From the IMG/VR virus record IMGVR_UViG_3300025362_000477: a stretch of 64,000 bases of DNA; one strand, 5' to 3'. Source of the DNA: a virus (Duplodnaviria > Caudoviricetes). Both the position numbers and the translations under genes were made by a program. The notes under the pieces were generated by a model. It did no database searches. It was not told where the DNA came from and was given only the letters and a program-made list of their open reading frames with translations. Below, one piece after another: positions 11,304 to 34,625 of this stretch (position 1 is its first letter; each line of letters starts with the position of its first letter).

Positions 11304-11762
11304 TTAAATAAGATCTCGTTTGAGTTCAGCACTTGTCATCAATTTAAAGATATCTCCTGGATTTGTAGGATATTTAATCAATTCCAATCTTCGTGTATCT
11401 TTATCTAAAAGACATACCTTTAATTGATCTGGATTCATTTCCCCCAACCCTTTATATCTCTGAATTTTCTGATTTGGATTAGTTATTTTAAATTTCTCAA
11501 GATCTTCATCTGTAAATAATGGTATAAACTTCTTCTTGACCGTCGCACCATACAATGGCATGATCGCTCTATATATATGTTTCTGTTCTCTGAGTAATGC
11601 CGGAACTAATTTCAAAGCCATAACCATTAACAATGCAGTAATATGACTATTATGTATAACACAACCAGAATTAGCCAAAACAAAATTACCAGTACCAGTT
11701 GTTAAATCACAAAATAATTCATCTTCATCAGATTTTCGTTCTATTATTATTTTAACTTTCAT
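11304..11762 (-). CDS. gyrB: Topoisomerase B C-terminal fragment preceded by a split-intein C half
   Basis: 38-aa IntC ending VIHN, then SHI...RYKGLGEMN; own AAAAGGA RBS. Confidence 0.92.
   Translation of the reverse strand: MKVKIIIERKSDEDELFCDLTTGTGNFVLANSGCVIHNSHITALLMVMALKLVPALLREQKHIYRAIMPLYGATVKKKFIPLFTDEDLEKFKITNPNQKIQRYKGLGEMNPDQLKVCLLDKDTRRLELIKYPTNPGDIFKLMTSAELKRDLI
11649..11762 (-). mobile_element. Split intein C-terminal half (IntC) of GyrB
   Basis: CDLTTGTGNFVLANSGCVIHN|S matches intein blocks F/G, with Ser at +1. Confidence 0.9.
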
Positions 11763-11763
11763 A

Positions 11764-13359: not shown

Positions 13360-13672
13360 CTATTATATTATCTCCATTATTTAATTCATCACATCGGATC
13401 CATCCTCTATTTTCAGTTAAAACTAGATGATCATGTGTTAATGTAAGAATAGAACCATCTTCCATTTCAACATCTAACCATTTTTTAAATATTTTATAAG
13501 GCCATATTTTTAAAATAGGAGTCCAAATATATTTCAAATCAATTTCATCATATCCTAAAATAAAAGAATCTTTAAATTGATCTACATTATCAATTATTTC
13601 TGAGAGATTAATCTTTTTAATTTGTTCTTTTTTAGTTTGAACATATACGAGTGTATGATTTCGAGGTACGCA
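13313..13672 (-). mobile_element. Split intein N-terminal half (IntN, 119 aa) of GyrB
   Basis: Starts CVPRNH (block A); LTLTHDHLV (block B TxxH); GWIRCDELNNGDNI end motif; then a stop codon. Confidence 0.9.
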
Positions 13673-16145: not shown

Positions 16146-17009
16146 TTAAATACCCAAATCAAAATCATCATCTGTAACAATATCTGATTCAGGAACTGGG
16201 TCTGGTGCTTCAGTAAATGTCGGAGCATCAGAATCTACTGATGTTGAAACTGATGATGCAGTCCCACCACGAACAAATGCTGTTTTATCAAACTGCTTCT
16301 CAAACTCTGGAAGTAATCCCATTGCGCTATCCATAACTTTTCCAACAACCTTATCTGGTAATTGAGTTGCCACTGCAAAATCAAATACCATTTTATCGCC
16401 ATGCTTTGATGGGGCTATACCTTTCATAACCTTACAAATAAACCTACGCGGATATACAACAGTTCTTTCGAATTCAGGACTATCACTCAAAGGTGGAAGA
16501 TCCTTAGCTTTATCCGAAATATGATCAATGAATTTCATAGCACCATTAAATTTCATACCACCGCATGAAAAATAACATAAAACTGGATCACCAACTTTAA
16601 TACCAGCATCTTCAATATCAATTTCATGTTTCATAGCCTGACCATTTTTATCTAATAAAAGACCAGCAATAATATAAGAATATTTGCAATCATCATCAAG
16701 TTTCGGAATATCATCCGCCCATCCAAAAGCAACAAGTTTTGAATATTTTTCATTTTTCTGATTCAAAGACTCAGTATACTTTGTCCAAATACGTTTAATA
16801 AAATAAGGAATGAATAATACTTCTGATTCATTCTGTTTTAAATATATTCCTTTGTCTAAATCAGACATAACCTGAAACTTGCCGATTTCCTGTCCTTCCC
16901 GAGAAGCACCAGTAATAAACACTGAATGAAATTTTCCAGGTGTTCGGCGCTGCTGAGAAGATGAAACATCTCCAAGTTTCCCATACTGTGATGCATTAAG
17001 TAATGCCAT
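16146..17009 (-). CDS. Putative single-stranded DNA-binding protein
   Basis: Likely start MALLNAS (GGAG RBS); flexible acidic tail ending DDDFDLGI; replication context; followed by a terminator. Confidence 0.45.
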   Translation of the reverse strand: MALLNASQYGKLGDVSSSQQRRTPGKFHSVFITGASREGQEIGKFQVMSDLDKGIYLKQNESEVLFIPYFIKRIWTKYTESLNQKNEKYSKLVAFGWADDIPKLDDDCKYSYIIAGLLLDKNGQAMKHEIDIEDAGIKVGDPVLCYFSCGGMKFNGAMKFIDHISDKAKDLPPLSDSPEFERTVVYPRRFICKVMKGIAPSKHGDKMVFDFAVATQLPDKVVGKVMDSAMGLLPEFEKQFDKTAFVRGGTASSVSTSVDSDAPTFTEAPDPVPESDIVTDDDFDLGI

Positions 17010-17168
17010 ATGTGTATTTCTCCATATAATATAATTTTTTATCTCAACAAAAAAGAATGAATTGAGACAATATAACCTATGTAATTTAATCATTACAATC
17101 CAAATTGTTAGGTTCAGACGTAATGATTCAAGACTATTTAAATATAAAAATTAAGTAATGTTTCTCTG

Positions 17169-17192
17169 CTATTCATATATAAATATATATAG
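17169..17192. promoter_or_regulatory. 24-nt AT-rich motif CTATTCATA...TATATATAG (copy 1)
   Basis: A same-length, near-identical copy lies at 30696-30719; both are intergenic. Confidence 0.3.
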
Positions 17193-17207
17193 CAATAAAC
17201 TTTTATT

Positions 17208-17441
17208 TTAACCGTCTATACTGATGAATGGTTTGGCGTTAAAATCCAAAGTAATGTTCGTAGCAGTAGAATTCATTAACATACTAGAAGCTGCTTTAAC
17301 CTCAGCAGTAACAGCACATAAAATCCTCAACTCACCACCATCTTTAAATCTAAAATACATCCCATCTGAAGTATCCTGGATAGCCATAAAATCATTATTA
17401 GGCATCTGAAATATCTTTCCATCTTTCTTAATTGTAATCAT
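17208..17441 (-). CDS. Hypothetical protein
   Basis: ORF coupled to the upstream stop codon. Confidence 0.65.
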   Translation of the reverse strand: MITIKKDGKIFQMPNNDFMAIQDTSDGMYFRFKDGGELRILCAVTAEVKAASSMLMNSTATNITLDFNAKPFISIDG

Positions 17442-18073
17442 TATTCTTCCTTTTTATTTAATACGAGTTGTCTAGATACAACCCCAGTAATATCCTTACC
17501 TATCCAAATCATAATTGTCCTTTCACCTTGAGTCCTAGTACAGAATTCAAAGTGATATCGAATCAATGAATGAATATTGTCATCATTTAATATTTTTTCT
17601 TGTGTTTTAAAATATCCTTCTTTTACCTTATTTGAGATCAATTTTGGACTTTTTAAAAGCGGTATATCAATGTATGGCATATACAAAACAATATATTCCA
17701 TCCATTCATCATATACAAAAAAGTGAATTAATTTAATAACTCCATCCAAATCATTCTCTAATATATTATCAGTATTAATATAATCTATCAAAATATCTAC
17801 AGGGTATATTTCCGCCAACCTATGCAAACATATCGTTAAAAATAACCTAGTATCATCAAGTTCTAATTCATTTAATATATCTTCCCAATAAAGATCAAAT
17901 TCTTGAAATCCTTTTATTTTACCAATAGCTTGTACTAATGCGTTTTTTCGATATTGTAAATACTGCTTTTCATTAACATCGCTCTGATCAGTTTCAGTTT
18001 CATCAAATGGTGAAACAATTTCTGATAACATTTTATCTAGACTGTCCATAATATTATACCTCTCATAATTCAA
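17441..18073 (-). CDS. Hypothetical protein
   Basis: ORF in the operon; no recognised motif. Confidence 0.65.
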   Translation of the reverse strand: MNYERYNIMDSLDKMLSEIVSPFDETETDQSDVNEKQYLQYRKNALVQAIGKIKGFQEFDLYWEDILNELELDDTRLFLTICLHRLAEIYPVDILIDYINTDNILENDLDGVIKLIHFFVYDEWMEYIVLYMPYIDIPLLKSPKLISNKVKEGYFKTQEKILNDDNIHSLIRYHFEFCTRTQGERTIMIWIGKDITGVVSRQLVLNKKEE

Positions 18074-19031
18074 TACTCTCTATTAATGATAAAAATCGAT
18101 TCTTTATTATTTCGGGATTTTCTTCCCATTCTAGTTGGGGAACACGAAAAATATTCAAATTATGTTTTGTGTAAGTTTGATCTTTTATATGATCATGGGT
18201 TTTATGCTTATCATGTTTATGCCATGGTTCATCAAACTCGATAACTAAACTCAATTCTTTAATATAACCATCTGGAAAAAATCCAAACATTCGATCTGGT
18301 CGAATAATTAAATAATCAGTATATAATTGTAACCATTTAAAGAATGATGGTTCATTCTTCCCAATATAAGGAGATAATGGTTCACCATTTGTTTTACATT
18401 CTTCTAAATAATCAATCATATTATTCCGAAATATCTCTCTACATTCCAGTGTTTGAGATATATTTTCAACACCATATTTCTCCAAACAAGTTTTTCTCTT
18501 TTTTTTATTCACTTGTTCCATCATTCCAGGAATCAACATAGGATGATCCACACCATAGTTTTTCATTAAGGTATTAACTTTTTTATCTTTCACTTCATCC
18601 AATTGAGATACATTTTCAACACCATATTTTTCTAAACATGTGTGTTTATATTTATCCCGTATATTCTTTGTCTGATAATGATGATCTACTCCATATCTTT
18701 CACGATAAGTAGAAATTTTCCTTTGTTGAATCACCGAACTTTTAGACGCATTATCCACTCCATAATTTTTCATCAAAGTTTCTTTTCTTTTTCTAATCGT
18801 GGATGGATTTAGATTAATACATGCCATAGAACATGATTGAGTATAACCATTAGTTAAACTAACAAACTTATTTGGATTTCCACATGCTCCACATATATCT
18901 TCACCTTCTTTTTTGAGATATTTATCATAATATTCTTTTAATGAAATATCATGTTCTTCATCATTCTTATTGTTTATATGATTGCCCAATGAATGACCTT
19001 TACACTCTTTTCCGCATATTTCACATTTCAT
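18063..19031 (-). mobile_element. Homing endonuclease, YGVxN-repeat/EDxHD-like family
   Basis: KCEICGK..H N-terminus, YGVDN repeats, FFPDGYIKELSLVIEFDEPWH; 2 nt downstream of rpoB. Confidence 0.78.
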
Positions 19032-19033
19032 AA

Positions 19034-22000
19034 TTATACCTTCACATCCAACATCATACCAGCCATATAAATATTTAAAAGGTCTTTGGTTTTACCACCC
19101 TTCGGTTCTCTATATGCAGCTTCTCCATTCTGAATAACATCAAATATAATTTCTTCTTTAGTAGATGTATCATCTGATAGGGGCCCGAGTAATTCTCTTA
19201 ATAACGATTCAGCGCCATGTGCAGCAACTGCCCAAGTGTCCATCTCACCTAAACGCTGTCCACCGCCATTTTTAGCTCCAGCAACAGGTTGACCAGTACT
19301 CTCTGAATACTTAGATATAGACCTAGAAGAAACTTTATACTCGGATTGCTGTTCTAACTTTTTATAATATAACCACCCAACAGTTACTGGATTTTGTGTT
19401 ACTGTTCCATATTCTGGTAATTTTAATACATATTTATCTTTAGCTCCAACCAATTTAAGAGCTTTTTTAATCATATCTTTAGTTGGGGCTTGAAATGGAG
19501 GAACATATATTGGAAGAAATCCTCTCTCTTTAATATCTTTCACATATTGAGTATATTGGTTATCTGATAAAGACTTATATGATTTGACAATATTTTCAGA
19601 TAATTTTTTATCTTCAGTATTATCCATTTGTTTATAAACGGATTCTAACAATTTCAATGCCTTATCATTCTTTTTATAACCATATGCAATAACTCTTTTA
19701 GCAAGAAACTTCCCTATTAACCCAGTATACAATTCAAACAAAGTACTAGGGTTCATACGATTAATGATCGCAATTGCATTAATAATCACTTCTATTCTCT
19801 CACCCCACGGAGTTATTGGCATATTCTCATCTTTTTCAATAAGAGTCAAAACACCTTTACCACCATGGTTATTTGTGATTTTATCACCAACTTGACATCT
19901 ATCCATTCTCTCAATTTTAAATACAATACGAATACCCGGAAATGGTTTTTTAGATCCAGCATCATTCACCAAGAACTTCTTCGGGAATTCACCTTTCATT
20001 TCAACATATCTTTTCTTAAATTTATTGAATTGAGGAATTAGTACTGGAAATTTCTTCAATGATATATTCGGATATATTTCAATAGCTATAATCTTACCAC
20101 CAGGTGATGGTTTTACAAACTGACCATCTACTAACTCATCTTCTTCAACTTCCAATAATTCTTCAACCTCTTTAGATGATCTAATAATTAAAGGTTCTCC
20201 ATTTTTAGTATCAGCTCCTTCTTCAGCAATCATTTTAATTGTAGATGTCGCATCTATATTAATTGTTATCTCTTCATATACTGGTGATACAAAATATTTA
20301 TTAGCAACAGATTCCGAAATAATATATCCATCTTCAAATGAATATCCTTTCCATCCCATTACGGCAGCTAACAAATTCCGACCAACAGAAATAATACCAT
20401 TCTTAATATGTTTACCTTCAGCCAATATCTGACCTTCTTTAACCTTCTCGCCCTCTTTAATAACCGGATGAAAATAATTCAATGAACTTTTACCCTGAGC
20501 TGATTTTAATTTTTCAGTATTCAATGGAATTATATGAACCTTATTCTTAACATCTCTAACATAAATAGCATTCTCACTCATTCGAACAACTATACCATCA
20601 ACTGGACTTTTTCTAATATATGAATCACTTAAATTGGTAGTTAAGATAGTTTCAAAACCAGTCTGAGCAATAGGAGGTTGATTTCCCATAATCGGAACAG
20701 ATTGTCGAGTCTGAGATGCCCCAAACATTACACGACATCCATCACATGAACCAATATAAGGTACAATACTAGCACTAGTACTTAATATAGAAGCCTTTGC
20801 AGCAGTTGTCTTTTCAAACTCCCCAAATGACCCTCGAATATTTCCAATGGCAGCATCAACAGTCAATTGATTTATGATACCAACTGAATCATTCTCTGGT
20901 GTATCCATTGGATCATAATTACCATAATATGAATTATGTAGACTTCTAGATGGTTTAGTCATTGCCTTTTTATCTGCTAATCCACCAGGTCCAACAGGGG
21001 ATACTTTAGTCAAACTAGATAGTTCTTCAAATGGATTAATATTTTCAATACTTTGAACCAATTTATCATTCACAATATTTTTAACTAACTCACGAGTATC
21101 ACAATAAAATTCGGAATCATCATCACCATGCTCACGCTGAGATAGATATACGTTATATGATTTCAAAATCTGTTTTTGAATCTGATAATTGAAAATTTCA
21201 GCACTTCTGATTCTTTGTTTTGATATATCATTACGATCATCAACCCGACCAGCAACAAGTCCTTTACATATATAAATCATACATCCATCAAAAGTAATTG
21301 GTTGCATCTTTGTCTTCAAAACTTCTACAGATATAGGTTCCATTATATTTTCTAATACCGAATCAATCCGGAAAATACTATTTCTATTTTCGGTCTGTTT
21401 AATAATCAAATCTTTAAAGTTTTTCTTATCAGTCAATACTTCACTAGTTAAATCACCATTAATCTCTTTGAAAGAATTAATTAATATTAGATTTTCTTTC
21501 TTATCACCATCCCATTCAAATACTAAATATTTTCCATCAGCTAATTCAACATAATTCTTATGATCTATTGGCTTAGATAATTGAATATTATGTTTCATAC
21601 CAAATAAATTACACATTTCTGAAAATCCCATAAAATAAGATAATAGTAATCCAGTAGGTAACCAATATCCCCCTATCTGAGATTGAAAATAAGATTTATG
21701 TTTAGTTTCCTTCCAATGCGTAGCCACTGGAGCATACATGGTTTGTAGTTTTGCCTGACCAGGTTTAAAGAAAAAGATCGGATCAACAACTGATTGATAA
21801 ACAAGATATTTCTTATTACCATTAACTAAGAATGTTCCATCTGGTTGTATCTCAGGAATGTCAATTTCAACCTCATGACTTTGCTTATTATCATCTTGTA
21901 ATGTTATAGAATATCTGATCATTTTAGTTGGTTCTAGGTCACCAGGATCTACGGGAACAGATGCCTTTTTGAATGATGAGATTGTTAATGGAAATTTATC

Positions 22001-23143
22001 TTTTCGTTTTAGAATACTGAATGATTTCAGCAAATCAGATTCAAATGATTCAGAGAAATCAACATGACGTTTACTCATCACAGCACTAGGATTTTTATTT
22101 TCATTAATTGAATTTATATTCGTTTTCTTATACACTGGATCTCTAGATTCATTTCTATAAGAATCTGTTTTCAAAATAGTAGGAGCTATATCTCTTTTAA
22201 TCTTTTTTATAGCACTATCTAATTTCTGACTCGTGATATTCTTTGATATTCTCTCTGCCTTCTTTAAATCTTTTGTCATCCCATAAACTGATGCTTTAAC
22301 AACTAATCTTTTTGCAGATTCAGGATTTAGATTACTAGAATTGATAATAGATGATCTCTTTTTAAAAGGAAGCTTCATAATATATTGTCTAACAGCAATT
22401 GCAATATTATGATCCTTTTCTGTTTTAGTAAGAGCTTCAATCCTATCAGACACCTGTTCTATTTCTTCATTTTCTTGATTAATTGCATCATCTACCGGGC
22501 GAGTCTTTATCTGTTTTAATAGACTTAACAATCGACCAATGGCAATCTGTGAAGTAGGAGTCTTTAATAATGAATATTTAATAACCCCATTGGTATTAAC
22601 TGCCATCATTACATAATCAAAAGGAACTTTTTCTTTAGATCTAAACATACTATATAATATATATGCTCGTTTCTCGAAAATATTTTCTGGCATCGGTTTA
22701 TCTAAATCAACATAATACATAAGAATATTATCCCGATCAGAATATACTGATTTTGTAGAGGTTAGATAGGATTTAATCTTAGATGCAACAATAGGTCGGC
22801 GATATGATTGTTTCTTATATTTAGCATCGACCATATCTAAATACAATGAAGTATCAACAAACATATTTTTGATATATGGTTTATTCACCCGAACTGGACG
22901 CAACCCATTTGAAACTATTGAAGATAAAGAATTAGCATTCACGACTAGACGTGGAATTTGTGCTGGTATAACTGTACCAAATCTAACAAATTGTCTTCGT
23001 ATTCTTAATTTAGAAAAAGCATTGGAAAAACTCGTATTTTCCGGATAAAAAATCAAATTATAATTCTTACCCTGATCAGAAGTAGTGTATGCCACATCCT
23101 TAGTAGTGAAGGGGAATAGTTTAAGTTTCTTTATATCAATCAT
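19034..23143 (-). CDS. rpoB: Phage multisubunit RNA polymerase beta subunit with a long N-terminal extension
   Basis: GTFLVNG, DPMDTPENDSVG, GASQTRQSVP, GDKITNNHGGKGV and GGQRLGEMD motifs. Confidence 0.93.
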   Translation of the reverse strand: MIDIKKLKLFPFTTKDVAYTTSDQGKNYNLIFYPENTSFSNAFSKLRIRRQFVRFGTVIPAQIPRLVVNANSLSSIVSNGLRPVRVNKPYIKNMFVDTSLYLDMVDAKYKKQSYRRPIVASKIKSYLTSTKSVYSDRDNILMYYVDLDKPMPENIFEKRAYILYSMFRSKEKVPFDYVMMAVNTNGVIKYSLLKTPTSQIAIGRLLSLLKQIKTRPVDDAINQENEEIEQVSDRIEALTKTEKDHNIAIAVRQYIMKLPFKKRSSIINSSNLNPESAKRLVVKASVYGMTKDLKKAERISKNITSQKLDSAIKKIKRDIAPTILKTDSYRNESRDPVYKKTNINSINENKNPSAVMSKRHVDFSESFESDLLKSFSILKRKDKFPLTISSFKKASVPVDPGDLEPTKMIRYSITLQDDNKQSHEVEIDIPEIQPDGTFLVNGNKKYLVYQSVVDPIFFFKPGQAKLQTMYAPVATHWKETKHKSYFQSQIGGYWLPTGLLLSYFMGFSEMCNLFGMKHNIQLSKPIDHKNYVELADGKYLVFEWDGDKKENLILINSFKEINGDLTSEVLTDKKNFKDLIIKQTENRNSIFRIDSVLENIMEPISVEVLKTKMQPITFDGCMIYICKGLVAGRVDDRNDISKQRIRSAEIFNYQIQKQILKSYNVYLSQREHGDDDSEFYCDTRELVKNIVNDKLVQSIENINPFEELSSLTKVSPVGPGGLADKKAMTKPSRSLHNSYYGNYDPMDTPENDSVGIINQLTVDAAIGNIRGSFGEFEKTTAAKASILSTSASIVPYIGSCDGCRVMFGASQTRQSVPIMGNQPPIAQTGFETILTTNLSDSYIRKSPVDGIVVRMSENAIYVRDVKNKVHIIPLNTEKLKSAQGKSSLNYFHPVIKEGEKVKEGQILAEGKHIKNGIISVGRNLLAAVMGWKGYSFEDGYIISESVANKYFVSPVYEEITINIDATSTIKMIAEEGADTKNGEPLIIRSSKEVEELLEVEEDELVDGQFVKPSPGGKIIAIEIYPNISLKKFPVLIPQFNKFKKRYVEMKGEFPKKFLVNDAGSKKPFPGIRIVFKIERMDRCQVGDKITNNHGGKGVLTLIEKDENMPITPWGERIEVIINAIAIINRMNPSTLFELYTGLIGKFLAKRVIAYGYKKNDKALKLLESVYKQMDNTEDKKLSENIVKSYKSLSDNQYTQYVKDIKERGFLPIYVPPFQAPTKDMIKKALKLVGAKDKYVLKLPEYGTVTQNPVTVGWLYYKKLEQQSEYKVSSRSISKYSESTGQPVAGAKNGGGQRLGEMDTWAVAAHGAESLLRELLGPLSDDTSTKEEIIFDVIQNGEAAYREPKGGKTKDLLNIYMAGMMLDVKV

Positions 23144-23152
23144 TAATTACCT

Positions 23153-26100
23153 CTAAAAATTTCCGGTTACAAGTTTCTCTAAAAGAGATTCGTCAGTGGG
23201 TCTATCATATATCAATCCAGTAGTAATGGAAGCTTTCGGATCCTCAAATGCCAATGCTTGAAGCCAAGATTCCAATTTCGGAATAGCCTTTGGGCCTCTT
23301 ACAACTGGATCATAATTCGGATTCAATCTTGCAGGATATGCAGGATTCCCCTTATCTCTAAGGAGATTGGATGCTAGAACTTCTAAATGAATCATATCAG
23401 TATTAGTATTCAATGTCAAATATTGATCATAAATTTTCATAAGAAAATGATCAGCGTTTTTGTAAGGAGTTCGACCAGAAAATAAAGATTCAATGATCTT
23501 AACCTGTTCTGAGAAAGCATCATTTGTTGGTACAGTATTTAATACTATCGATCCCTTCTTATAAGTAATAATAATAGCCTTAGCATCTTGTTTTATTTGC
23601 TTATCAGTTAAATCAATTTCAATTTTATTATCTAAGGTCACACTTGTGACAGTATCAGCATAGTTCAAATTAAAATAACCATAATTTAAATTAAGACTGG
23701 TTTTTGTTAATTCAATATCCTTTTTAGAATCTAAATAGTCAGCCATTGAAATATAAATGGAACCATCACTTAAAGCATGGAGTTCTGATGTGGTCTGTTT
23801 GAAATGTCTTTCTAATAATCTCTTATGTGATGAATCTAACATTCTAGAGATCTCAGACATGATATCCATTGTCTTAATAGATACACTACCACCAGTATGG
23901 AATGTCATCATAATCGTCTGAGTCAATCTTTCACCGCATATTTCCCCTGCTAGAATCCCAACATACTTTGTTTTGTTACGCATCATCATATCCCCATAAC
24001 AAGTACGACATAGTGATGGAGTAGTACAATACATGGGGGATCTCAGATGAACCACTTTGTTCATATGCTGTGATTTGTTGAAAGGGACAATTTTCCTCTC
24101 ATCATCAACGATATATCGACCTTCTAATCGACTGGCAATATCTGCATCAACTTTTATCGTAACAAACCTCTTAGTTCTACAATCTTTAATTCGTGGATCG
24201 GCTTCAACTCGTTGAAGTGCCGATACCAATTGTCGTGATAGATACCCAGTATCCGAAGTATTCAATACCCTATCAATAATACCTTTTCTCGAACCATAAC
24301 CACTTTCAAAATATTCATCGCTCTCAAATCCATCACTATAACTATTTTTTATAACACGAATACCACCATTTGGATCTACAAGCAATCCTTTCGCAACTAA
24401 GATCTGTCTTGATTGTTTATAACCATTCTTCAATCCTCCAGCCTTACCTATAATACCAATATTAGTGCCATTTTCCTCAACATGCTTTTGTAATGCATCG
24501 GTCATTCTATCTGTTATGAGACTAGCTTCTACAGGATCTTTAGCAGTATCTAACTCATCTTTCATTTTCATTATATGAGCAGGAATCTCAAAATCAGAAA
24601 GACTAAAACTTGGTGCCATAATAGTATAATATTTCATACCCAATTTAACAGACTCATGACAGAATTTTACATATGTTGGATTCCCATCTTCATGTTTATA
24701 GTCATTATATATTAAAGCTGCTAATTTATTGATTTCTTTTTTTCCTGTTGGTACATTAGTATGATATTTTTTAGAAGGTAATACCTTATTAAACATCACA
24801 CGACCAACTGTTGTGACCTTACCATCATATTTTATTATATCAATAGGAGACATTTCTGTTAATTGCCTATCATCCCTAATGACTATTGGAGCTCGTTCTG
24901 ATTTACTATCCTGAGTGAGAGCATATAATCCGATAACCATATCTTTTGAAAAGTCATCACTGATAGTCCCCATTGCATCCTTAGATTCAGAATTTATCAT
25001 TTTATCTTTAGTTTCTTGGATAGATTCTTTTGTTATAGGCACATAAATGGCCATTCTATCTCCATCAAAATCTGCATTATAAGCTCCACATTTTAAAATA
25101 TTTAATTTGATAGTATTACCATCAACCATTACCGGTTTGAACCCCTGAACAGACTCTGCATGGAGTGCTGGATCACGTTTAGCTAATACAACCTTACCAG
25201 CAATTGCTCGATTCACAGAAGCTTTTACCATTGTTTCTAATTCATCTGGGAGCTTAAATTTTTTATTAATACTAGACATTAAACGACGAGTAGATGGGAT
25301 ACTAAATGTTTGTCCATTAAAATCTAATAGAAGTTCAGCAAATTTCTTCTGATCAATATTCCCACTATTATGAATATCATAAATGATAAATGGTTCAAAT
25401 AGTTTAACTAACATCATAAAAGGGATACCGATTTCATCAATCTTAATCTCTGTAGCTGCACCAGTAATGACAGCCCCACCACTAAAATCAATTCTCTTTC
25501 CTAATATATTTTGACGAACAATACCCTGTTTCTTTGAAATCTTCTGAATGATATAATTGTATAAATCACTAACCAACTCATGCATCTTAGATGCAAGAAT
25601 ATCATACATCGGACCTTCCGTTAAAGAAATAGATTCCAATTGAATGGACTGTCTTAATATTTTAACATAATAATCATTAATTGGTTTAACTCTCATACCA
25701 CCAGAAATTTCATCAATTTCTGCATCTCTTGATGATGCTGGTATAACTATGCACTTATCAACGAAAACCATATCATGTTTCAAATAATTCATAATCATAT
25801 TTTTAACATCAATTCTCTTCTGATCAGTTTCTTCCCTTGAAATCATTTTCTCAAAATTTTTCACAACAGAAGTTATCCCATTAATATCACCTTCAGGATC
25901 AGCAATTAAAGTTCCTTTATCATCAAATCGAAATGCCTGCTTTCTTTCAATTGCTTCAATAATTTTTCTATTTAATGTCCATATTGGCTTAACTAATGCT
26001 GGATGAATAATTTTACAATGTAATTCAATATATGATAAAGTCTTTCGTCGTTCAGGGGAATCCTTTGCACCAAAGATCTTTTCAGAAAATAAACCTTCAG

Positions 26101-26200
26101 GATGTAATACTACACCTTTGCCAACAACATAATCCGGAGTGGTCACTGGGTCCATCAATTGTGTTATTTTTTTAATATCTGACAGATATATTTGGTTCAT
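23153..26200 (-). CDS. rpoC: Phage multisubunit RNA polymerase beta' subunit
   Basis: Catalytic NADFDGD; LGKRIDFSG, RDPALH, TSDTGYLSRQL, RSPMYC..CRTCYG and TQTIMMTFHTGG motifs; start MNQIY after an AGGAG RBS. Confidence 0.95.
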   Translation of the reverse strand: MNQIYLSDIKKITQLMDPVTTPDYVVGKGVVLHPEGLFSEKIFGAKDSPERRKTLSYIELHCKIIHPALVKPIWTLNRKIIEAIERKQAFRFDDKGTLIADPEGDINGITSVVKNFEKMISREETDQKRIDVKNMIMNYLKHDMVFVDKCIVIPASSRDAEIDEISGGMRVKPINDYYVKILRQSIQLESISLTEGPMYDILASKMHELVSDLYNYIIQKISKKQGIVRQNILGKRIDFSGGAVITGAATEIKIDEIGIPFMMLVKLFEPFIIYDIHNSGNIDQKKFAELLLDFNGQTFSIPSTRRLMSSINKKFKLPDELETMVKASVNRAIAGKVVLAKRDPALHAESVQGFKPVMVDGNTIKLNILKCGAYNADFDGDRMAIYVPITKESIQETKDKMINSESKDAMGTISDDFSKDMVIGLYALTQDSKSERAPIVIRDDRQLTEMSPIDIIKYDGKVTTVGRVMFNKVLPSKKYHTNVPTGKKEINKLAALIYNDYKHEDGNPTYVKFCHESVKLGMKYYTIMAPSFSLSDFEIPAHIMKMKDELDTAKDPVEASLITDRMTDALQKHVEENGTNIGIIGKAGGLKNGYKQSRQILVAKGLLVDPNGGIRVIKNSYSDGFESDEYFESGYGSRKGIIDRVLNTSDTGYLSRQLVSALQRVEADPRIKDCRTKRFVTIKVDADIASRLEGRYIVDDERKIVPFNKSQHMNKVVHLRSPMYCTTPSLCRTCYGDMMMRNKTKYVGILAGEICGERLTQTIMMTFHTGGSVSIKTMDIMSEISRMLDSSHKRLLERHFKQTTSELHALSDGSIYISMADYLDSKKDIELTKTSLNLNYGYFNLNYADTVTSVTLDNKIEIDLTDKQIKQDAKAIIITYKKGSIVLNTVPTNDAFSEQVKIIESLFSGRTPYKNADHFLMKIYDQYLTLNTNTDMIHLEVLASNLLRDKGNPAYPARLNPNYDPVVRGPKAIPKLESWLQALAFEDPKASITTGLIYDRPTDESLLEKLVTGNF

Positions 26201-26211: not shown

Positions 26212-26610
26212 CTAGTTGAGCTTTTTGGGATCCCATCGTTCTGGTGATGGTTTCAAAGATTGACTAACAGGAATTTTAGTCTGTCTCTTCTTCAGTTGCT
26301 CTCTATATTGTTTGTATTTCATTCGCTCTTTTTGTAATTGTATAGAAAAATATTTTATCTTTTTATTTAATGATCCTTTAGATACGGAACCATTCTTTAA
26401 TTTATTTAATGTAGAAATGATCTGTGTATAACCTCTCATTCTACAGGTACTAGAACATACCTTCACTTGAAAATTATAATCAGGACCATTTTTAATACTC
26501 TTCCTGCATTTATCAGAGCATTTCTTTAACATCTCTTTTGCAGCACTAGATGCAGCAAAAACAGAATTCTCAAAAAGAATAACTCTAGTAAAAATTTTGT
26601 CAGTATCCAT
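26212..26610 (-). CDS. Basic protein with a twin CX3C motif
   Basis: CSDKC...CSSTC followed by a predicted coiled coil; resembles the C-terminus of 53502-54404. Confidence 0.6.
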   Translation of the reverse strand: MDTDKIFTRVILFENSVFAASSAAKEMLKKCSDKCRKSIKNGPDYNFQVKVCSSTCRMRGYTQIISTLNKLKNGSVSKGSLNKKIKYFSIQLQKERMKYKQYREQLKKRQTKIPVSQSLKPSPERWDPKKLN

Positions 26611-26762: not shown

Positions 26763-28133
26763 TTACTTATTTTTTTGGTACCAATCGATACCTTGGTCTG
26801 CTGTTTTAAACTTCCCATCCATCTGAGCATCATAGATTTTCTGTAGAATGGACCCAAATGTCTTATTTGGAATCAATCCCATATCAATTAAATGCCTGCC
26901 GAAAACGATCCGTTTAGGTCTTGAATCATAAACTTCTAATTCTCGAGCTTGTTTTCTCAACCAATCCTCAGCGTAATCAAAATGAGATTCAACTGGTCCT
27001 CGACCCATCTTATCACAAGTTGAAACCCAAGTTAACCAATCGATTCTCCCAACTCTATTTGCCAATCTTCGAATAGCAGATTTGGAAGCCCCTGTAGCAG
27101 CAAATGTTGTCGGTGCCATATGATTAGTAACCAATGAAACTACACTTTCAATAATGAAATTTGGTTTCTTCTGATTACTAGAACCCATCAATCGGGACAT
27201 GAATGAGCGAGTAGGTTCTTTTCCTGCATATTCATGCCGTCTTGATCTGATTTGACCATCAATGAATTCAGTCGTTGCTGGCTTACCAAAGTCATGACAT
27301 AACACAGCGAACCCACATATAATCTGATCTTCAACATCTTCCATACCTCTGAGAGATGCGAAAGCGTCCATACAAAGTCCTGTATGGATAAAAACATCAC
27401 CTTCAGGATGCCATTCAGAATCTTGTTCCACTCCAATCAAATCACGAAGTTCTGGATAATAATCAATCCATCCAGTATCAACCAAAAACTTTAAAGCTTT
27501 TGATATATAGATTCCTTTTGTGATCAATTTTTTCCATTCTTCTAAAATGCGTTCTCGAGACAGATCAAATTGACACAACCCTTTACATAACTCCAAGGTT
27601 AATGAATCAACATCCAAATCAAATCTAGCAACAAACTGCATTCCCCGAAGTACCCGTAAAGGATCCTCTGAAAATGCACTTGATGTATGCCGTAAAATTT
27701 TAGCATGGAGATCACGAAGCCCATCAAAGGGATCAATGATAATATCATTGATCGGATCATATGCCATTGAATTAATTGTGAAATCTCGGCGAGATGCAGC
27801 TTCTCCAGGGGTCATTGATGGATCACCTTCAATAGTAAAACCTTTATGACCATCCCCAGTTTTAGAATCTCGTCGTGGGATTGAAATATCAATATCATGA
27901 TGTTTGACCTTAATAACACCAAAGGATTTTCCAACGATATCAATATCAAATCCGTTTTTTACCAAGGTATCAATGATACTATCAATATCGAGATTGTAAA
28001 TCTCAAGATCAATATCCTTGAACTCGGCTCCGATGATGCTATCTCTCACAGCACCACCGACAACATAAGTCAATCCACCAGAACCACGAATGATATTGCA
28101 AATGCTCATTACTAAATCAGGTAGTTTCATCAT
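26763..28133 (-). CDS. cca: CCA-adding tRNA nucleotidyltransferase with HD domain
   Basis: GGAVRD..DIDL, RRDFTIN, EDPLRVLR, WHPEG..H and LCHDFGK motifs; internal AAAGGA RBS before ATG 28133. Confidence 0.9.
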   Translation of the reverse strand: MMKLPDLVMSICNIIRGSGGLTYVVGGAVRDSIIGAEFKDIDLEIYNLDIDSIIDTLVKNGFDIDIVGKSFGVIKVKHHDIDISIPRRDSKTGDGHKGFTIEGDPSMTPGEAASRRDFTINSMAYDPINDIIIDPFDGLRDLHAKILRHTSSAFSEDPLRVLRGMQFVARFDLDVDSLTLELCKGLCQFDLSRERILEEWKKLITKGIYISKALKFLVDTGWIDYYPELRDLIGVEQDSEWHPEGDVFIHTGLCMDAFASLRGMEDVEDQIICGFAVLCHDFGKPATTEFIDGQIRSRRHEYAGKEPTRSFMSRLMGSSNQKKPNFIIESVVSLVTNHMAPTTFAATGASKSAIRRLANRVGRIDWLTWVSTCDKMGRGPVESHFDYAEDWLRKQARELEVYDSRPKRIVFGRHLIDMGLIPNKTFGSILQKIYDAQMDGKFKTADQGIDWYQKNK

Positions 28134-28751
28134 GAATCCTTTCATCTTTAAGTTGATCTTCCGCCATTTTTTAACTGCCGGTTCCATCATACCAGCAACT
28201 ACTGACCAATGAGTCAATTGATCTGGAGTGATCTCTCTCGGCTTATGCTTTAGATTGGCCTTCTTAGCACACTCGTTACATAGAAGGGCAATATGTGTGT
28301 GATCGACTAGGAACCAGCTAGCACCTGTGATCTTACACATCCGTTTGATATCCTCCTTTTCAAGAGGATATGGAACCAATATAGGATTATCTCGAACAGC
28401 ATCTTCTCTGGCAAGATTCATTTGATCAAAGAAATTAATCTTCTCATCAGACTCAGCAGTTTTCAATTCAATCTTCTTGAGTGAAATAATCATCTGAGCA
28501 TATACATCCTGTAAGGTAGTACCAGCAACCTGACAACCCCAACAACGAGGTACTGGAGGAGTAGTAGTAGATTCACCAATTCGTTTCTTTTTAGCCATTC
28601 TCTTCTTCAATTCAAGCATATCATGTTCATGCTTCAACGTATTAGCCTGATTAGCTTCCTGATGGATCTTACATGCTCTACCATCCTTATATTGGAAGGA
28701 TTTTCTGCGAGATACTTCTATCCCGCAGATATTACAAATAAAATTTTTCAT
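28117..28751 (-). CDS. Cys-rich zinc-finger protein, apparently fused in frame to cca (possible A6/A7 indel)
   Basis: CNIC, CKIH, CWGC and CNEC motifs; ATGA-coupled start at 28751. Confidence 0.5.
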
Positions 28752-29221
28752 TTCACATCCCTTATTAACCAATCAGGATCTCCACCATAGAACCGGAGTT
28801 TATTTAAAATATCGAACTCATTAAGTCGACCTTTAATTTCAAATAACTCAATCCATTGATGGAATTTCAATAAAGCATACAAACCATTATTATAATAATC
28901 TTTATACTCATTACATATTGGATTGGAACATTTTTTATCTTCCGGTAACCATAAGTTAATATTTTTCTCTATCAACTCTGCGAGTTTAGTTGAATCTTTT
29001 GTAGATTCAATTATTATCACTTCTCGTCGTATGCAATTACATACTTCGCAAACGACAACTTTTAGTTTCTTCACGAAGAATCGATCGAAGTAATAATTTT
29101 CATCAATCTCCTTTTTCAGAAGATTATATGCTAAATCAACTACTCCATTTTCTTGGAGAAATTTCTTAGCATTAGTGATGGAATTGAATTGTTCCATCGG
29201 GAACTCTTCAATTTTAAACAT
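28748..29221 (-). CDS. Hypothetical protein with CxxC motifs
   Basis: CEVC..CSNPIC motifs. Confidence 0.6.
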   Translation of the reverse strand: MFKIEEFPMEQFNSITNAKKFLQENGVVDLAYNLLKKEIDENYYFDRFFVKKLKVVVCEVCNCIRREVIIIESTKDSTKLAELIEKNINLWLPEDKKCSNPICNEYKDYYNNGLYALLKFHQWIELFEIKGRLNEFDILNKLRFYGGDPDWLIRDVK

Positions 29222-29251
29222 ATTATACCTTTCTGTTAAATTGAGAAAAAT

Positions 29252-29291
29252 AAACCATTGTCTCTTATATAAAAATAAGAGACAATGGTTT
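29252..29291. terminator. Terminator-like inverted repeat
   Basis: AAACCATTGTCTCTTAT / ATAAGAGACAATGGTTT perfect arms with a 6-nt loop. Confidence 0.7.
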
Positions 29292-29307
29292 TAAACAATC
29301 AGATGAC

Positions 29308-29742
29308 TTAATCGTCAATATTATCCGCATGCTCAACCGGATCATCGACTATGTCGACAACATTAGCCATAATGGCTTCTATAGCCACCTGAAAGGACTT
29401 CTCGTACCGAGTCATGGAACGAGAGCTGATCTGTACCATATCGATACATGATTTAACAATCCCGATCACAGGATCGATCAAGATCGAATACAATTCAACA
29501 AGTGAAGTATACACCGGCACCAGAAGTGCTGCATGATTTATTACCGACTCACCGAACGCAATAATATAACGTTCGATTTCTTCATCACTCTTTCCCTCGA
29601 GAGAGTTCACTACTGTGTGAATCTGTACAGCTACGTCATCAATGTCTTTTTTGGCTTTCTTAGCCATAATCTTTGTGAATAAGTTCATGATACTTATTCC
29701 TTTTTTTGTTATTACTAGTAACACGATATGATACACCACCAT
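29308..29742 (-). CDS. Hypothetical protein
   Basis: ORF; the true start is probably MNLFTK. Confidence 0.55.
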   Translation of the reverse strand: MVVYHIVLLVITKKGISIMNLFTKIMAKKAKKDIDDVAVQIHTVVNSLEGKSDEEIERYIIAFGESVINHAALLVPVYTSLVELYSILIDPVIGIVKSCIDMVQISSRSMTRYEKSFQVAIEAIMANVVDIVDDPVEHADNIDD

Positions 29743-29805
29743 GGCACGGAATCGATTTTATCATCCGTTCATCATCCAACCCCTTTATAAAATATAAAGG
29801 GGATT

Positions 29806-30027
29806 TTAATTATTCCACCAATCTGTCCCATCCTCTATATGGGTTTGAAGCCATTCCTTTTTCTCGACTTCATGATCTTCTTGACGTACTTTCGCACGTC
29901 TCTTTGCCTGGGTCTTTCTACCACCTCTTTGGCCTAACTCAGACATTGAAATACCCTCGTTCATGGCATATTCAAAGAGATTCATACTACCTCCTTGATC
30001 CGAGTATTCTCTGGAAGAGAAACCCAT
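29806..30027 (-). CDS. Small basic protein with a KGG-like motif
   Basis: SELGQRGGRKT resembles KGG stress-protein repeats. Confidence 0.5.
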   Translation of the reverse strand: MGFSSREYSDQGGSMNLFEYAMNEGISMSELGQRGGRKTQAKRRAKVRQEDHEVEKKEWLQTHIEDGTDWWNN

Positions 30028-30266
30028 ACACCACTAGTATACCGGGACTTCTTTTTAGGAAGTCCCTGTATTTTTCTCTGCTCGGAGTATAGTATAGCCG
30101 AGGTCACTTCGACCTTATAAACTATACCATATCTTCTACACTTATCAATAGAATCAGTAAGGTAGATGATCCCACCAGACATCACGTCCATTTGTGATAT
30201 TCCGGTTGGGGTTTTCAATGAATCCCCAATGGAGATTATATTTCGTGAACCATGATATAATATCAT
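29982..30266 (-). CDS. Small ADP-ribosyltransferase-fold-like protein
   Basis: LYHGS...IYLTDS...YG.VYKV pattern; AAGGAG RBS. Confidence 0.45.
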   Translation of the reverse strand: MILYHGSRNIISIGDSLKTPTGISQMDVMSGGIIYLTDSIDKCRRYGIVYKVEVTSAILYSEQRKIQGLPKKKSRYTSGVWVSLPENTRIKEVV

Positions 30267-30825: not shown

Positions 30826-32256
30826 ATGATTAGATTTAACGAAACAGGCAAAAGAAAATATCAAATTCTTAATATTGATAGTAATGAAATTCCAGAAGAG
30901 ATAGATCCAAAAACAATCATCGTTGAAATGAATTTAATTTTTTCCCCAATAACAAATAAATTTTTCCGTTTAACAGAATTCGTAGAAGGTTGCAGTGACA
31001 CTATCGGAATTGAATTTGATAATTGGTATATTAAAATGATTAAAGATTATAAAAATTCAAAATATGATTATTCTATAATCAAGGCAAACATCCCTCAATT
31101 AAAAATTTATTGTAATCAATATCTTGAACATGTAGGAATCAACTTTGAAGATTACATCAATAGATCTAAAGTTTCAAAAAATAGTATTTTCTTTGATGCT
31201 GATGAGATTAAAAAGATCATTCAAGCTTCTAATTATCTAAAAATTTATTTTTCTTTCAGTCAAGATGCTAAAATGAAATTATCAAATAGATTTCATAAAC
31301 AAACATATAATATGTTAATTGAAAATATAAATGATACTAATATTATTTATAAACTATTCAAAATTGTTTCTAGTAAGACGTATGAATATAATTACACTGA
31401 CCGGTTCATGTGGGATTACATCAAGACTATTTACTGTAAAACAACTGATATGCATGTTTTTTCCATTTTTAATTTTATTATGAATAACATTCTAGTCACT
31501 TGCAAGATTGATTCAAATCCTATTCCTTATTTAATTAGTGTTATTGATGAATCTATTAAATGGATTCTAAAAAACATTTATAAAGATGCCATTATTTACT
31601 CTGAAACTGTGTGCACGCAAGATGTATATACTCAACAAGGACGAGATAAGTTATCAAGTTTTGCACAAAATGATACTTTAGGCAAACTACTTATCATCTC
31701 ATTTAATCAATTAGAAAATAACGGTATAAAAAATATTGAAACTTTTAAGAATAATATTACCGGTTTAAAAGAAATTTCATTGTTTGCGAATTATGTAACG
31801 TATCCCATTTTATCAAAAGTACTTGATATACCATATCGTCATTTTATGACTTTATCGGTTTCGAATTCATATTTATTAAATCTCTTAGTTCATTATTTAT
31901 TGCCAGTAGAATTTAAATCTAAATATCCAATTTTGTCTAAAATGCTATTACATTATAATAAACAAAAGCCAATTTTAAAGACCACGTATAAAGTTAAAAA
32001 TATAGATGTATTCACAGAAACCATTGGAACATTCCTAGGGTTTAAAAATAATATTACGCCTTATGATATGTATAGCAGTGTAATCGGAAAACTCTCCAGA
32101 AATAGTTATAACTCATTTCTTAATAATAAAGAAATAGTTAATTTTCCATTAGCCAAATTAGAAATAGATGTCATCAAATTTTATAATGATTATTTTGATG
32201 GGCGCATGGAGCATTTGTTTGACGATCTTAGAGAAAAGATCGATATTTTGTTATAG
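30826..32256 (+). CDS. Hypothetical protein (476 aa), divergently transcribed
   Basis: Long ORF with a TAAGGAG RBS and a downstream terminator; no recognised motif. Confidence 0.8.
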   Translation: MIRFNETGKRKYQILNIDSNEIPEEIDPKTIIVEMNLIFSPITNKFFRLTEFVEGCSDTIGIEFDNWYIKMIKDYKNSKYDYSIIKANIPQLKIYCNQYLEHVGINFEDYINRSKVSKNSIFFDADEIKKIIQASNYLKIYFSFSQDAKMKLSNRFHKQTYNMLIENINDTNIIYKLFKIVSSKTYEYNYTDRFMWDYIKTIYCKTTDMHVFSIFNFIMNNILVTCKIDSNPIPYLISVIDESIKWILKNIYKDAIIYSETVCTQDVYTQQGRDKLSSFAQNDTLGKLLIISFNQLENNGIKNIETFKNNITGLKEISLFANYVTYPILSKVLDIPYRHFMTLSVSNSYLLNLLVHYLLPVEFKSKYPILSKMLLHYNKQKPILKTTYKVKNIDVFTETIGTFLGFKNNITPYDMYSSVIGKLSRNSYNSFLNNKEIVNFPLAKLEIDVIKFYNDYFDGRMEHLFDDLREKIDILL

Positions 32257-33370: not shown

Positions 33371-33458
33371 ATAATTTATTCTATTAATTTTTATAATGAT
33401 TATTAAAATCATAAGATTCTAATCCCGATTAAGGGAATAAAATAAAAAGGAGATTTAT

Positions 33459-34451: not shown

Positions 34452-34625
34452 AGATGACGTCTATATCTTTATAAAGAACCTAGTTATTTTGACATTAAAG
34501 TTGAGGTTTAGGTTCTTTAAAGTATAGTTTAATTCAAAAGATGAATAAATGTTTATTGTAAAGAGTAATTATATCATACGTTTTTTTTGATGGATGGAAT
34601 AAAGAATAAATTTAAAAGGAATATT

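What the first reader, a model, noticed from the sequence alone, without database searches (positions are those of the whole stretch)
19034..26200. Uninterrupted, adjacent beta'/beta RNA polymerase genes in beta'-beta order, lacking the beta' N-terminal Zn ribbon
Seen: full-length rpoC then rpoB on the same strand, the reverse of bacterial rpoBC order and not split into several genes as in phiKZ/AR9. In beta', FGAKDSPERRKTLSYIEL replaces the four-Cys Zn-binding domain, while the second Zn site (DC..RSP..C..C..CYG) is kept. No alpha, omega or sigma gene is recognisable in the window. Established: a deep-branching clade of tailed phages with two-subunit RNAPs has been reported. Inference: this genome belongs to or parallels that clade, with an uncharacterised initiation mechanism.
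Basis: partly seen in the sequence, partly recalled or inferred. Interest (0 to 1): 0.6.

Follow-up and report, generated by a model that had tools for sequence, protein, structure and literature searches.

The report
Unsplit virion-type phage RNA polymerase
An uncultured 230-kb phage encodes, as two whole genes, the counterpart of the five-piece RNA polymerase that phiKZ-like phages carry in their particles, next to a hidden sigma-like factor and alongside a second polymerase elsewhere in the genome, so the origin and workings of these enzymes become testable.

Summary
On the minus strand, an intact beta' gene (23153-26200, 1015 aa) is followed by an intact beta gene (19034-23143, 1369 aa). 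The N-terminal Zn ribbon of beta' is cleanly deleted and the second Zn site is kept.

The enzyme is the "a-type" RNAP of the published mReC clade, so the lineage is known. I found three things in no paper I searched:
- This genome and 11 related contigs each carry two unsplit sets, the Zn-less a-type and a Zn-ribbon b-type.
- The a-type is the orthologue of the split virion RNAP of phiKZ and AR9. Support: the same ribbon-less junction, reciprocal profile scores, a clade at 99/100, the shared beta N-terminal region, and a beta' tail that is a separate virion protein in AR9.
- The conserved 476-aa neighbour (30826-32256, +) has the fold of AR9 gp226 / phiKZ gp68, the sigma-like promoter subunit (Z 19.5).

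The window therefore does hold a sigma-like gene, visible only by fold.

Packaging into virions and early-gene transcription are inferred by orthology, not shown. Which polymerase the factor serves is open.

This scan reached the same virion-type reading on another genome (e1-5368750).

The parts
23153..26200 (-). beta' subunit, a-type (Zn-ribbon-less), 1015 aa, unsplit
   Evidence: Pfam Rpb1_2 and Rpb1_5. Family of about 100 clusters, all about 1000 aa. Orthology with phiKZ gp180 and AR9 gp144.
26021..26095 (-). junction where the N-terminal Zn ribbon is deleted (residues 36-60 of the 1015-aa protein)
   Evidence: Side-by-side view of the junction in bacteria, outgroup phages, the b-type and the phiKZ/AR9 virion and non-virion proteins.
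25058..25078 (-). catalytic NADFDGD loop
   Evidence: Invariant D377, D379 and D381 in alignment A1. Aligned to the Thermus active site.
23999..24181 (-). second Zn site kept (Cys674, Cys725, Cys731, Cys734)
   Evidence: Invariant in A1. Aligned to Thermus Cys1112/1194/1201/1204.
19034..23143 (-). beta subunit, a-type, 1369 aa, unsplit, with a long N-terminal region that no Pfam model covers
   Evidence: Pfam Rpb2_3, _6 and _7 from residue 697 on. Residues 488-966 match phiKZ gp178 (virion head protein). Residues 297-709 match AR9 gp188 (virion RNAP beta N-terminus). Only residues 701-1333 align to the own-genome b-type beta.
30826..32256 (+). 476-aa sigma-like promoter-specificity factor of the gp226/gp68 family (assigned by fold)
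   Evidence: Model pLDDT 79.8. 7S01_A: Z 19.5, 411 of 463 residues aligned. 7OGP_B residues 307-521: Z 8.7. Sigma domain-2 hits over residues 121-260. Foldseek E 2.3e-5. One copy in each of 5 of 5 genomes, next to the a-type beta' in 4 of them. 76/60/38% identity in relatives.
26212..26610 (-). 132-aa three-helix protein directly upstream of beta'; role unknown
   Evidence: A small ORF holds this position in all relatives examined. 13 full-length homologues. Model pLDDT 83, generic helical bundle.
18063..19031 (-). DUF7487 homing endonuclease inserted just after beta; not part of the enzyme
   Evidence: PHROG homing endonuclease and Pfam DUF7487. Absent at this place in L002 and L003.
16146..18073 (-). 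three ORFs (210, 77 and 315 aa) conserved downstream of beta; function unknown
   Evidence: Syntenic homologues in L002 and L003. No Pfam or PHROG family.

Best explanation
The two genes encode the catalytic core of the a-type RNA polymerase of the mReC phage clade. This enzyme is the unsplit, two-polypeptide orthologue of the virion RNA polymerase that phiKZ- and AR9-like jumbo phages assemble from five polypeptides.

The phage has a second, paralogous unsplit core about 59 kb away: the b-type, with beta' 959 aa carrying the Zn ribbon and beta 1125 aa. That set corresponds to the non-virion polymerase. The phage also has one sigma-like factor of the gp226/gp68 family, encoded next to the a-type genes.

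By analogy with phiKZ and AR9, the most likely working is as follows. The a-type enzyme is made late, packed into the capsid and injected with the DNA. It transcribes early genes without host polymerase. These early genes include the b-type core, which then transcribes late genes.

Shown here: the anatomy, the paralogy, the orthology and the fold of the factor. Inferred only: packaging, timing, and which core the sigma-like factor serves.
For: 1. Shared rare change. The window, phiKZ gp180 and AR9 gp144 (both virion beta'-N) have the same ribbon-less junction. Bacteria, three outgroup phage RNAPs, the b-type and phiKZ gp55 keep CxC...CxxC.

2. Reciprocal profile scores.
- The a-type profile scores AR9 gp144 (virion) at 176.5 bits against gp269 (non-virion) at 97.3, and phiKZ gp180 at 121.4 against gp55 at 26.9.
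- The b-type profile scores gp269 at 109.4 against gp144 at 40.4, and gp55 at 46 against gp180 at 25.1.
- Gene identities come from the record annotation.

3. Tree of the beta' N-terminal region (411 columns, ribbon columns filtered out, LG+C20+F+G4).
- The a-type plus gp180 plus gp144 form one clade at UFBoot/SH-aLRT 99/100.
- The b-type plus gp55 plus gp269 group at 91/76.
- Each virion protein still joins the a-type when the other is left out, with support 99 and 87.

4. Virion-specific architecture.
- The beta N-terminal region matches AR9 gp188 and phiKZ gp178, both virion beta-N.
- The beta' tail matches AR9 gp124, a separate 'virion structural protein': E 2e-10 for the a-type profile against 2e-4 for the b-type.

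5. Two sets per genome.
- The window's own genome has both (P0136 on the 230,269-bp contig).
- So do 8 of 8 IMG/VR records searched.
- Three more contigs are inferred from matching contig lengths.

6. The sigma-like factor.

7. Baseplate hub, PAAR and amidase genes lie just upstream on the same strand in relatives.
Against: - No virion proteome, transcript map or promoter exists for any member. Packaging and early function rest on orthology alone.
- The sigma-like factor, a non-virion-enzyme subunit in phiKZ and AR9, sits beside the a-type genes in 4 of 5 genomes. That could mean it serves the a-type enzyme.
- The full-length beta' tree leaves a-type, b-type and split enzymes as an unresolved trichotomy, with the four long split branches drawn together.
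- The AU test does not formally reject an unsplit-only clade: 18.97 lnL worse, p 0.055.
- The C-terminal half of beta' does not discriminate between the two enzyme types.
- Only two split-enzyme phages and two bacteria were in the trees.
Confidence: 0.65

Rival explanations
1. The a-type enzyme descends from the same ancestor as the virion polymerases, but in this lineage it is a non-virion enzyme. It works as a three-protein holoenzyme with the adjacent gp226/gp68-like factor. The b-type enzyme has the other role.
For: The factor gene lies within 1-5 kb of the a-type beta' in the window and in 4 of 5 genomes, and there is only one copy per genome. In phiKZ the homologous gp68 gene lies near the genes of the enzyme it serves (own knowledge of the phiKZ map, gp68 beside gp71-74).
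Against: In both characterised systems the factor belongs to the non-virion enzyme (PMC9209446, PMC7598289). In the window and its closest relatives the factor gene is transcribed divergently from the polymerase operon, which allows separate timing. In one genome it is about 57 kb from the a-type genes.
Confidence: 0.22
2. The two sets arose by a duplication inside the mReC lineage, independent of the virion/non-virion pair of phiKZ-like phages. The likeness of the a-type to virion enzymes would then be convergence or long-branch artefact.
For: The full-length tree does not resolve the three groups. The AU test of this topology gives p 0.055, so it is not rejected at 0.05. All split proteins have very long branches.
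Against: It would require several things to arise twice: the same deletion boundaries, the same beta N-terminal region, and the preference of the AR9 virion protein gp124 for the a-type tail. The best tree places the a-type with the virion proteins at 99/100, and this survives removal of either long branch.
Confidence: 0.1
3. The genes are ordinary bacterial rpoBC, either captured recently from a host or lying on a misassembled cellular contig.
For: The best solved-structure matches are bacterial beta' chains.
Against: Identity to bacterial beta' is about 28% over part of the length. The order is beta' then beta. The surroundings are phage genes: baseplate, UvsX, T4-type topoisomerase II and homing endonucleases. 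Trees place the family outside bacteria at 98-100.
Confidence: 0.01

Closest known systems
mReC RNA polymerases (Weinheimer & Aylward 2020, PMC7481178)
   Same: Same clade. Unsplit beta and beta' of the same sizes (beta about 1360-1386 aa, beta' about 1002-1017 aa in that paper's table). A contig in their list holds a 1005-aa beta' of the window's family.
   Different: The paper's text treats the clade as one RNAP. It does not discuss the two sets per genome (only the _a/_b labels in a supplementary table), the Zn ribbon, any link to virion or non-virion enzymes, or a specificity factor.
Virion RNA polymerase of phiKZ (gp178, gp149, gp180, gp80) and AR9 (annotated gp144, gp263, gp188, and the gp124-type tail protein)
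   Same: Same ribbon-less beta' junction, same beta N-terminal region, best reciprocal profile matches, one clade at 99/100.
   Different: Here there are two polypeptides instead of at least five. The genes are adjacent instead of scattered. The host phage has T4-like replication and baseplate genes. Virion location is not shown for this enzyme.
AR9 gp226 / phiKZ gp68, the promoter-specificity (sigma-like) subunit of the non-virion RNAP (PMC9209446)
   Same: The 476-aa neighbour matches gp226 over its whole length (Z 19.5) and the gp68 C-terminal domain (Z 8.7). It has a sigma2-like core.
   Different: There is no detectable sequence similarity. The gene lies beside the virion-type core genes. 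Its partner core and its promoter are unknown.
Bacterial RNAP core (beta, beta')
   Same: Double-psi barrel catalytic core, NADFDGD, the second Zn site, bridge helix and trigger loop regions.
   Different: Gene order reversed. N-terminal Zn ribbon deleted. Beta' about 400 aa shorter than in E. coli. No alpha or omega gene found. About 28% identity.
Other unsplit phage RNAPs: Yersinia phage GN1/YerA41 type, Rhizobium phage RHph_TM30, Vibrio phage 1.031.O
   Same: Unsplit beta'. GN1 also has the beta'-then-beta order.
   Different: They keep the Zn ribbon. They branch outside the clade that unites a-type, b-type and split jumbo-phage enzymes. tblastn found one beta' place per record.

Membership tests
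mReC clade RNAP (a-type) | Unsplit beta and beta' on a tailed-phage contig, branching apart from cellular RNAPs | tested here: met
   Intact ORFs. Phage context. Outside bacteria at 98-100.
mReC clade RNAP (a-type) | Close kinship with a sequence listed in the paper's dataset | tested here: met
   Ga0180432_10000070 (149,482 bp) is listed with an '_a' beta' of 1005 aa. The same record holds a 1005-aa frame scoring 1370 bits against profile A1.
mReC clade RNAP (a-type) | gp23-type major capsid protein (PF07068) in the genome | not tested
   No capsid gene lies in the window, and the whole genome is not held.
phiKZ/AR9-type virion RNAP | Beta' N-terminal part more like virion than non-virion subunits | tested here: met
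   176.5 against 97.3 bits (AR9) and 121.4 against 26.9 bits (phiKZ). Clade at 99/100.
phiKZ/AR9-type virion RNAP | Absence of the beta' N-terminal Zn ribbon with the same junction | tested here: met
phiKZ/AR9-type virion RNAP | Virion-specific beta N-terminal region, and a C-terminal beta' piece that is a separate virion protein in split systems | tested here: met
   Matches to AR9 gp188, phiKZ gp178 and AR9 gp124.
phiKZ/AR9-type virion RNAP | Core split into five or more polypeptides | tested here: not met
   Two uninterrupted ORFs. It is therefore filed as an unsplit variant, not as a typical member.
phiKZ/AR9-type virion RNAP | Physically present in virions and injected; transcribes early genes | not testable with these tools
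   The phage is uncultured. There is no proteome or transcriptome.
gp226/gp68 sigma-like subunit | Fold: N-terminal domain with a sigma2-like core, finger region, and C-terminal domain shared by gp226 and gp68 | tested here: met
   7S01_A Z 19.5 over model residues 1-456. 7OGP_B Z 8.7 over residues 270-461. Sigma2 hits over residues 121-260. Foldseek probability 1.00. The pattern matches the description in PMC9209446.
gp226/gp68 sigma-like subunit | Binds an RNAP core and confers promoter specificity | not testable with these tools
   No biochemical data exist.
Bacterial RNAP holoenzyme | Alpha dimer, omega and a sigma70- or sigma54-family factor; rpoB-rpoC order; beta' Zn ribbon | tested here: not met
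   No such families in about 50 ORFs. Order reversed. Ribbon deleted.

The most novel reading that the evidence does not exclude
The virion/non-virion pair of jumbo-phage RNA polymerases arose by one duplication before the mReC and phiKZ/AR9 lineages parted. The famous split state is secondary, since the split virion proteins even nest inside the unsplit a-type at 90/89. The mReC a-type enzyme is then a natural two-polypeptide virion polymerase, packed and injected. That would give the first tractable recombinant model of a virion multisubunit RNAP, possibly with the neighbouring sigma-like protein as its specificity factor.
Probability: 0.45. Interest if true: 0.75.

Novelty: new variant of a known kind. 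Interest (0 to 1): 0.62.

Why it matters
Two questions are stated as open in the literature:
- A 2026 review (PMC13282480) says it is unknown whether the virion and non-virion polymerases arose by duplication or by two acquisitions.
- A 2020 review (PMC7598289) notes that no virion RNAP had been purified, and that the mReC authors left the jumbo-phage enzymes out of their tree.

Here both paralogues occur unsplit in one widespread lineage. Each is tied to one of the split enzymes by a shared deletion, shared architecture and a tree. This does three things:
- It argues for one old duplication followed by later gene fission.
- It joins two bodies of work that have been kept apart.
- It offers a two-gene version of the virion enzyme, plus a candidate specificity factor, that could be expressed and studied directly.

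It also shows that loss of the beta' Zn ribbon, an element otherwise kept from bacteria to phages, marks the virion-type enzyme.

Tried and rejected
- Single-protein scan of IMG/VR: no relative found. The alignment-based scans worked.
- Whole-genome tools: no genome is held for the window. Metagenome records behind my loci are not searchable. The exact look-up of the window's beta' found nothing on record.
- Metagenome scan with the b-type profile: swamped by bacterial rpoC and did not return the own contig. The paralogue was found instead through the protein database.
- Complex prediction of the 476-aa factor with residues 1-450 of the a-type beta': no verdict, score 0.00, controls not run. 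This counts neither for nor against binding.
- Sequence searches of the 476-aa family against PDB, phiKZ and AR9: nothing. The protein atlas gave no usable hit.
- Promoter hunt. The commonest intergenic word, TAAATTAAA, occurs 11 times against 6.6 expected, and 8 of 100 shuffles reach 11. No motif is established.
- 132-aa upstream ORF: a confident three-helix bundle, but only generic fold matches. I found no support for the idea that it replaces the Zn ribbon in trans.
- ARPP-1 (PF20208) genes lie near both polymerase sets in some relatives. The window's 315-aa ORF gave no Pfam hit, and no link to transcription could be shown.
- Full-length beta' tree: did not resolve the orthology.
- AU test of the rival topology: borderline, p 0.055.
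- AU test that all four split pieces form one clade: did not finish.
- No beta tree was built, because the AR9 and phiKZ virion beta genes are in many exons or only partly fetched.
Full report
**What is there.** The reported genes lie on the minus strand. The upstream gene (23153-26200) encodes a 1015-aa beta' and the downstream gene (19034-23143) a 1369-aa beta, separated by 10 nt. The list of ORFs gives an ATG 12 codons further upstream (26236). Pfam finds Rpb1 domains 2 and 5 in beta', and Rpb2 domains 3, 6 and 7 in beta from residue 697 on. Nothing covers the first roughly 480 residues of beta. Neither gene is interrupted.

The window is a tailed-phage genome of about 31% G+C. It carries a baseplate hub and wedge, a UvsX-like recombinase, T4-type topoisomerase II, dCMP deaminase, thymidylate kinase, a CCA-adding enzyme and many homing endonucleases. 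The database copy of beta' sits on a contig of 230,269 bp.

**The zinc sites.** After the conserved GLFS..IFG anchor, most beta' proteins carry a CxC...CxxC ribbon. This holds for:
- bacterial beta';
- three cultured-phage unsplit beta' proteins (RHph_TM30, Vibrio 1.031.O, Yersinia GN1);
- the paralogous beta' described below;
- phiKZ gp55.

The window goes directly from FGAKDS to PERR, about 25 residues shorter. Every one of about 100 relatives at 32% identity or more has the same gap. The second Zn site is intact. Its four Cys are invariant in the family and align with the Thermus Zn2 ligands.

**It is not alone in its genome.** A set of more distant relatives (26-29% identity, 900-960 aa) keeps the ribbon. 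I checked this in four ways.
- A 959-aa ribbon-bearing beta' (P0136) is on record for a 230,269-bp contig, with the same sources and contig count as the window's own protein.
- An identical copy on a 65.6-kb contig shows beta' 959 aa, a 54-aa ORF, a NUMOD3 endonuclease, then beta 1125 aa.
- All eight searchable IMG/VR records with the Zn-less type also hold a ribbon type of 889-922 aa, on the same strand, 30-42 kb from the Zn-less copy where both positions were read.
- Three more pairs follow from matching contig lengths.

Within this genome the two sets are about 27% identical in both subunits. Only residues 701-1333 of the window's beta align with the other beta. I call the window's set a-type and the other b-type.

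**Membership in the published clade.** The supplementary table of Weinheimer and Aylward 2020 lists metagenomic phage RNAPs in two size classes. One has beta about 1360-1386 aa with beta' about 1002-1017 aa. The other has beta about 1000-1050 aa with beta' about 900-975 aa. Several contigs carry both, labelled _a and _b. One of them, Ga0180432_10000070 (149,482 bp), is among my loci. It holds a 1005-aa frame scoring 1370 bits against the window family's profile, and a 900-aa b-type frame. The window's enzyme is thus the mReC a-type. The paper's text never mentions phiKZ, virion enzymes, zinc, or two copies per genome. The authors left the split jumbo-phage enzymes out of their tree, as Sokolova et al. 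note.

**Relation to the split enzymes of phiKZ and AR9.** Four independent lines tie the a-type to the virion polymerase.

1. *The junction.* AR9 gp144 and phiKZ gp180, both virion beta' N-terminal subunits, have the same ribbon-less junction as the window. phiKZ gp55 (non-virion) keeps the four Cys. AR9 gp269 (non-virion) lacks them in a different way.

2. *Profile scores.*
 - The a-type profile scores AR9 gp144 at 176.5 bits against gp269 at 97.3.
 - It scores phiKZ gp180 at 121.4 against gp55 at 26.9.
 - The b-type profile prefers gp269 (109.4 against 40.4) and gp55 (46 against 25.1).
 - The C-terminal half does not discriminate.

3. *Architecture.*
 - The N-terminal region of the window's beta matches AR9 gp188 and phiKZ gp178, the virion beta N-terminal subunits.
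 - The C-terminal tail of the a-type beta' matches AR9 gp124, a separate virion structural protein: E 2e-10 for the a-type profile against 2e-4 for the b-type.
 - This corresponds to the fifth virion-RNAP polypeptide described by Sokolova et al..

4. *Trees.*
 - A full-length beta' tree unites a-type, b-type and split enzymes at support 99, apart from bacteria and the RHph_TM30, Vibrio and GN1 enzymes.
 - That tree leaves the inside unresolved, with the four long split branches together.
 - With the N-terminal polypeptide region, a site-heterogeneous model and the ribbon columns filtered out, the a-type plus gp180 plus gp144 form a clade at 99/100. The b-type plus gp55 plus gp269 group at 91/76.
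 - Each virion protein still joins the a-type when the other is removed.
 - Holding a-type and b-type together without the split enzymes costs 18.97 log-likelihood units, p-AU 0.055. That is suggestive but not a formal rejection.

**A hidden sigma-like factor.** A 476-aa gene (30826-32256, plus strand) accompanies the a-type beta' in nine related loci. It is as conserved as beta' itself, at 76, 60 and 38% identity against 60, 50 and 36%. It has no Pfam, PHROG, PDB-sequence, phiKZ or AR9 sequence match.

Its predicted structure (pLDDT 79.8) gives three kinds of match:
- chain A of the AR9 non-virion holoenzyme over its whole length (Z 19.5, 411 of 463 residues; Foldseek E 2.3e-5, probability 1.00);
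- the C-terminal domain of phiKZ nvRNAP chain B, residues 307-521 (Z 8.7);
- domain 2 of many sigma factors, over model residues 121-260.

I did not look up the chain assignments. I read 7S01 chain A (463 residues) as gp226, and 7OGP chain B (numbered to residue 521) as gp68, from their lengths and numbering and from the fit described next.

This is the three-part pattern that Fraser et al. describe for gp226: a sigma2-like core, a finger, a sigma4-like helix, and a C-terminal domain shared with gp68. There is one copy per genome in 5 of 5 records, beside the a-type beta' in 4 of them. So the statement that no sigma gene is recognisable holds for sequence methods only.

**How it most likely works.** In phiKZ and AR9 the virion enzyme is made late, packaged and injected. 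It transcribes early genes, among them the genes of the non-virion enzyme. The non-virion enzyme, with gp68 or gp226, then transcribes later genes.

Orthology makes the same division of labour the best guess here: the a-type as the packaged early enzyme, and the b-type plus the sigma-like factor as the late one. In relatives the a-type genes follow baseplate hub, PAAR and amidase genes on the same strand, which fits late expression.

These steps are inference. The position of the factor gene beside the a-type genes is the main reason for doubt and defines the chief rival. A complex prediction of the factor with the a-type beta' N-terminus gave no verdict. I found no promoter motif.

**Other conserved neighbours.** A small ORF always precedes the a-type beta'. 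In the window it is 132 aa (26212-26610). It is a confident three-helix bundle with two invariant Cys and a conserved C-terminal tail, but only generic fold matches. Downstream, after an inserted DUF7487 homing endonuclease, come conserved ORFs of 210, 77 and 315 aa with no family assignment. Whether any of them is a subunit is unknown.

**Novelty and verdict.** The lineage is known, and the two sets per contig can be read from a published supplementary table. Three things appear in none of the papers I could search:
- the reading of the a-type as the unsplit counterpart of the virion polymerase;
- the Zn-ribbon loss as its marker;
- the gp226/gp68-like factor in this clade.

A 2026 review still lists the origin of the two enzymes as unknown.

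The same reading was reached earlier in this scan on another genome (e1-5368750). I saw that note only after my own tests.

I rate this a new variant of a known kind, of moderate to high interest to specialists in phage transcription.

Noticed in passing
window 11304-15154: The T4-type topoisomerase II ATPase subunit is in two pieces, with intein fragments and a DUF7487 homing-endonuclease gene between them.
   Followed up: partly
window 11764-13359, 18063-19031, 32258-33412, 34587-35765, 59707-60624, 61677-62747: At least six homing-endonuclease genes (DUF7487 / PHROG 3339 type) in 64 kb. One follows the beta gene directly. Others break up the ribonucleotide reductase region (60590-63932).
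   Followed up: no
window 26763-30266: A 669-aa CCA-adding enzyme with a 230-residue N-terminal extension, plus three small ORFs, lies between the sigma-like gene and the polymerase operon. In relatives L001-L003 these two are adjacent, so this block looks like an insertion.
   Followed up: partly
L004:12734-13843; contig of P0081: Genes of Pfam family ARPP-1 (PF20208) lie between the b-type beta' and beta in one relative, and just downstream of the a-type beta in another. The repeated association with both polymerase sets is unexplained.
   Followed up: partly
P0048, P0050 (a-type, about 1390-1399 aa); L005 (4161-nt match); P0190, P0193 (b-type with PF14890): Some beta' genes of both types are 300-400 aa longer, in two cases with an intein Pfam hit. 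Inteins seem to invade these polymerase genes repeatedly (see also note e1-5368742).
   Followed up: no
tree: The split virion proteins of phiKZ and AR9 nest between the two a-type subclades (90/89) rather than outside them. That would make the split state derived from an unsplit a-type ancestor. Branches are long, so this is tentative.
   Followed up: partly
L177 (AR9 gp269): The AR9 non-virion beta' N-terminus has also lost the ribbon cysteines, but with an acidic insert and different boundaries. This is a second, independent loss.
   Followed up: partly
window 26212-26610 and L003, L006-L011 upstream ORFs: The small ORF before the a-type beta' falls into two sequence families that phmmer cannot join. 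Both are Cys-containing and both hold the same position.
   Followed up: partly
L268:8086-9489: Just upstream of the own-genome b-type beta' lie ThiF-like, 84-aa and 203-aa genes. This is the E1/Ubl/E2-like module of note e1-5320383.
   Followed up: no
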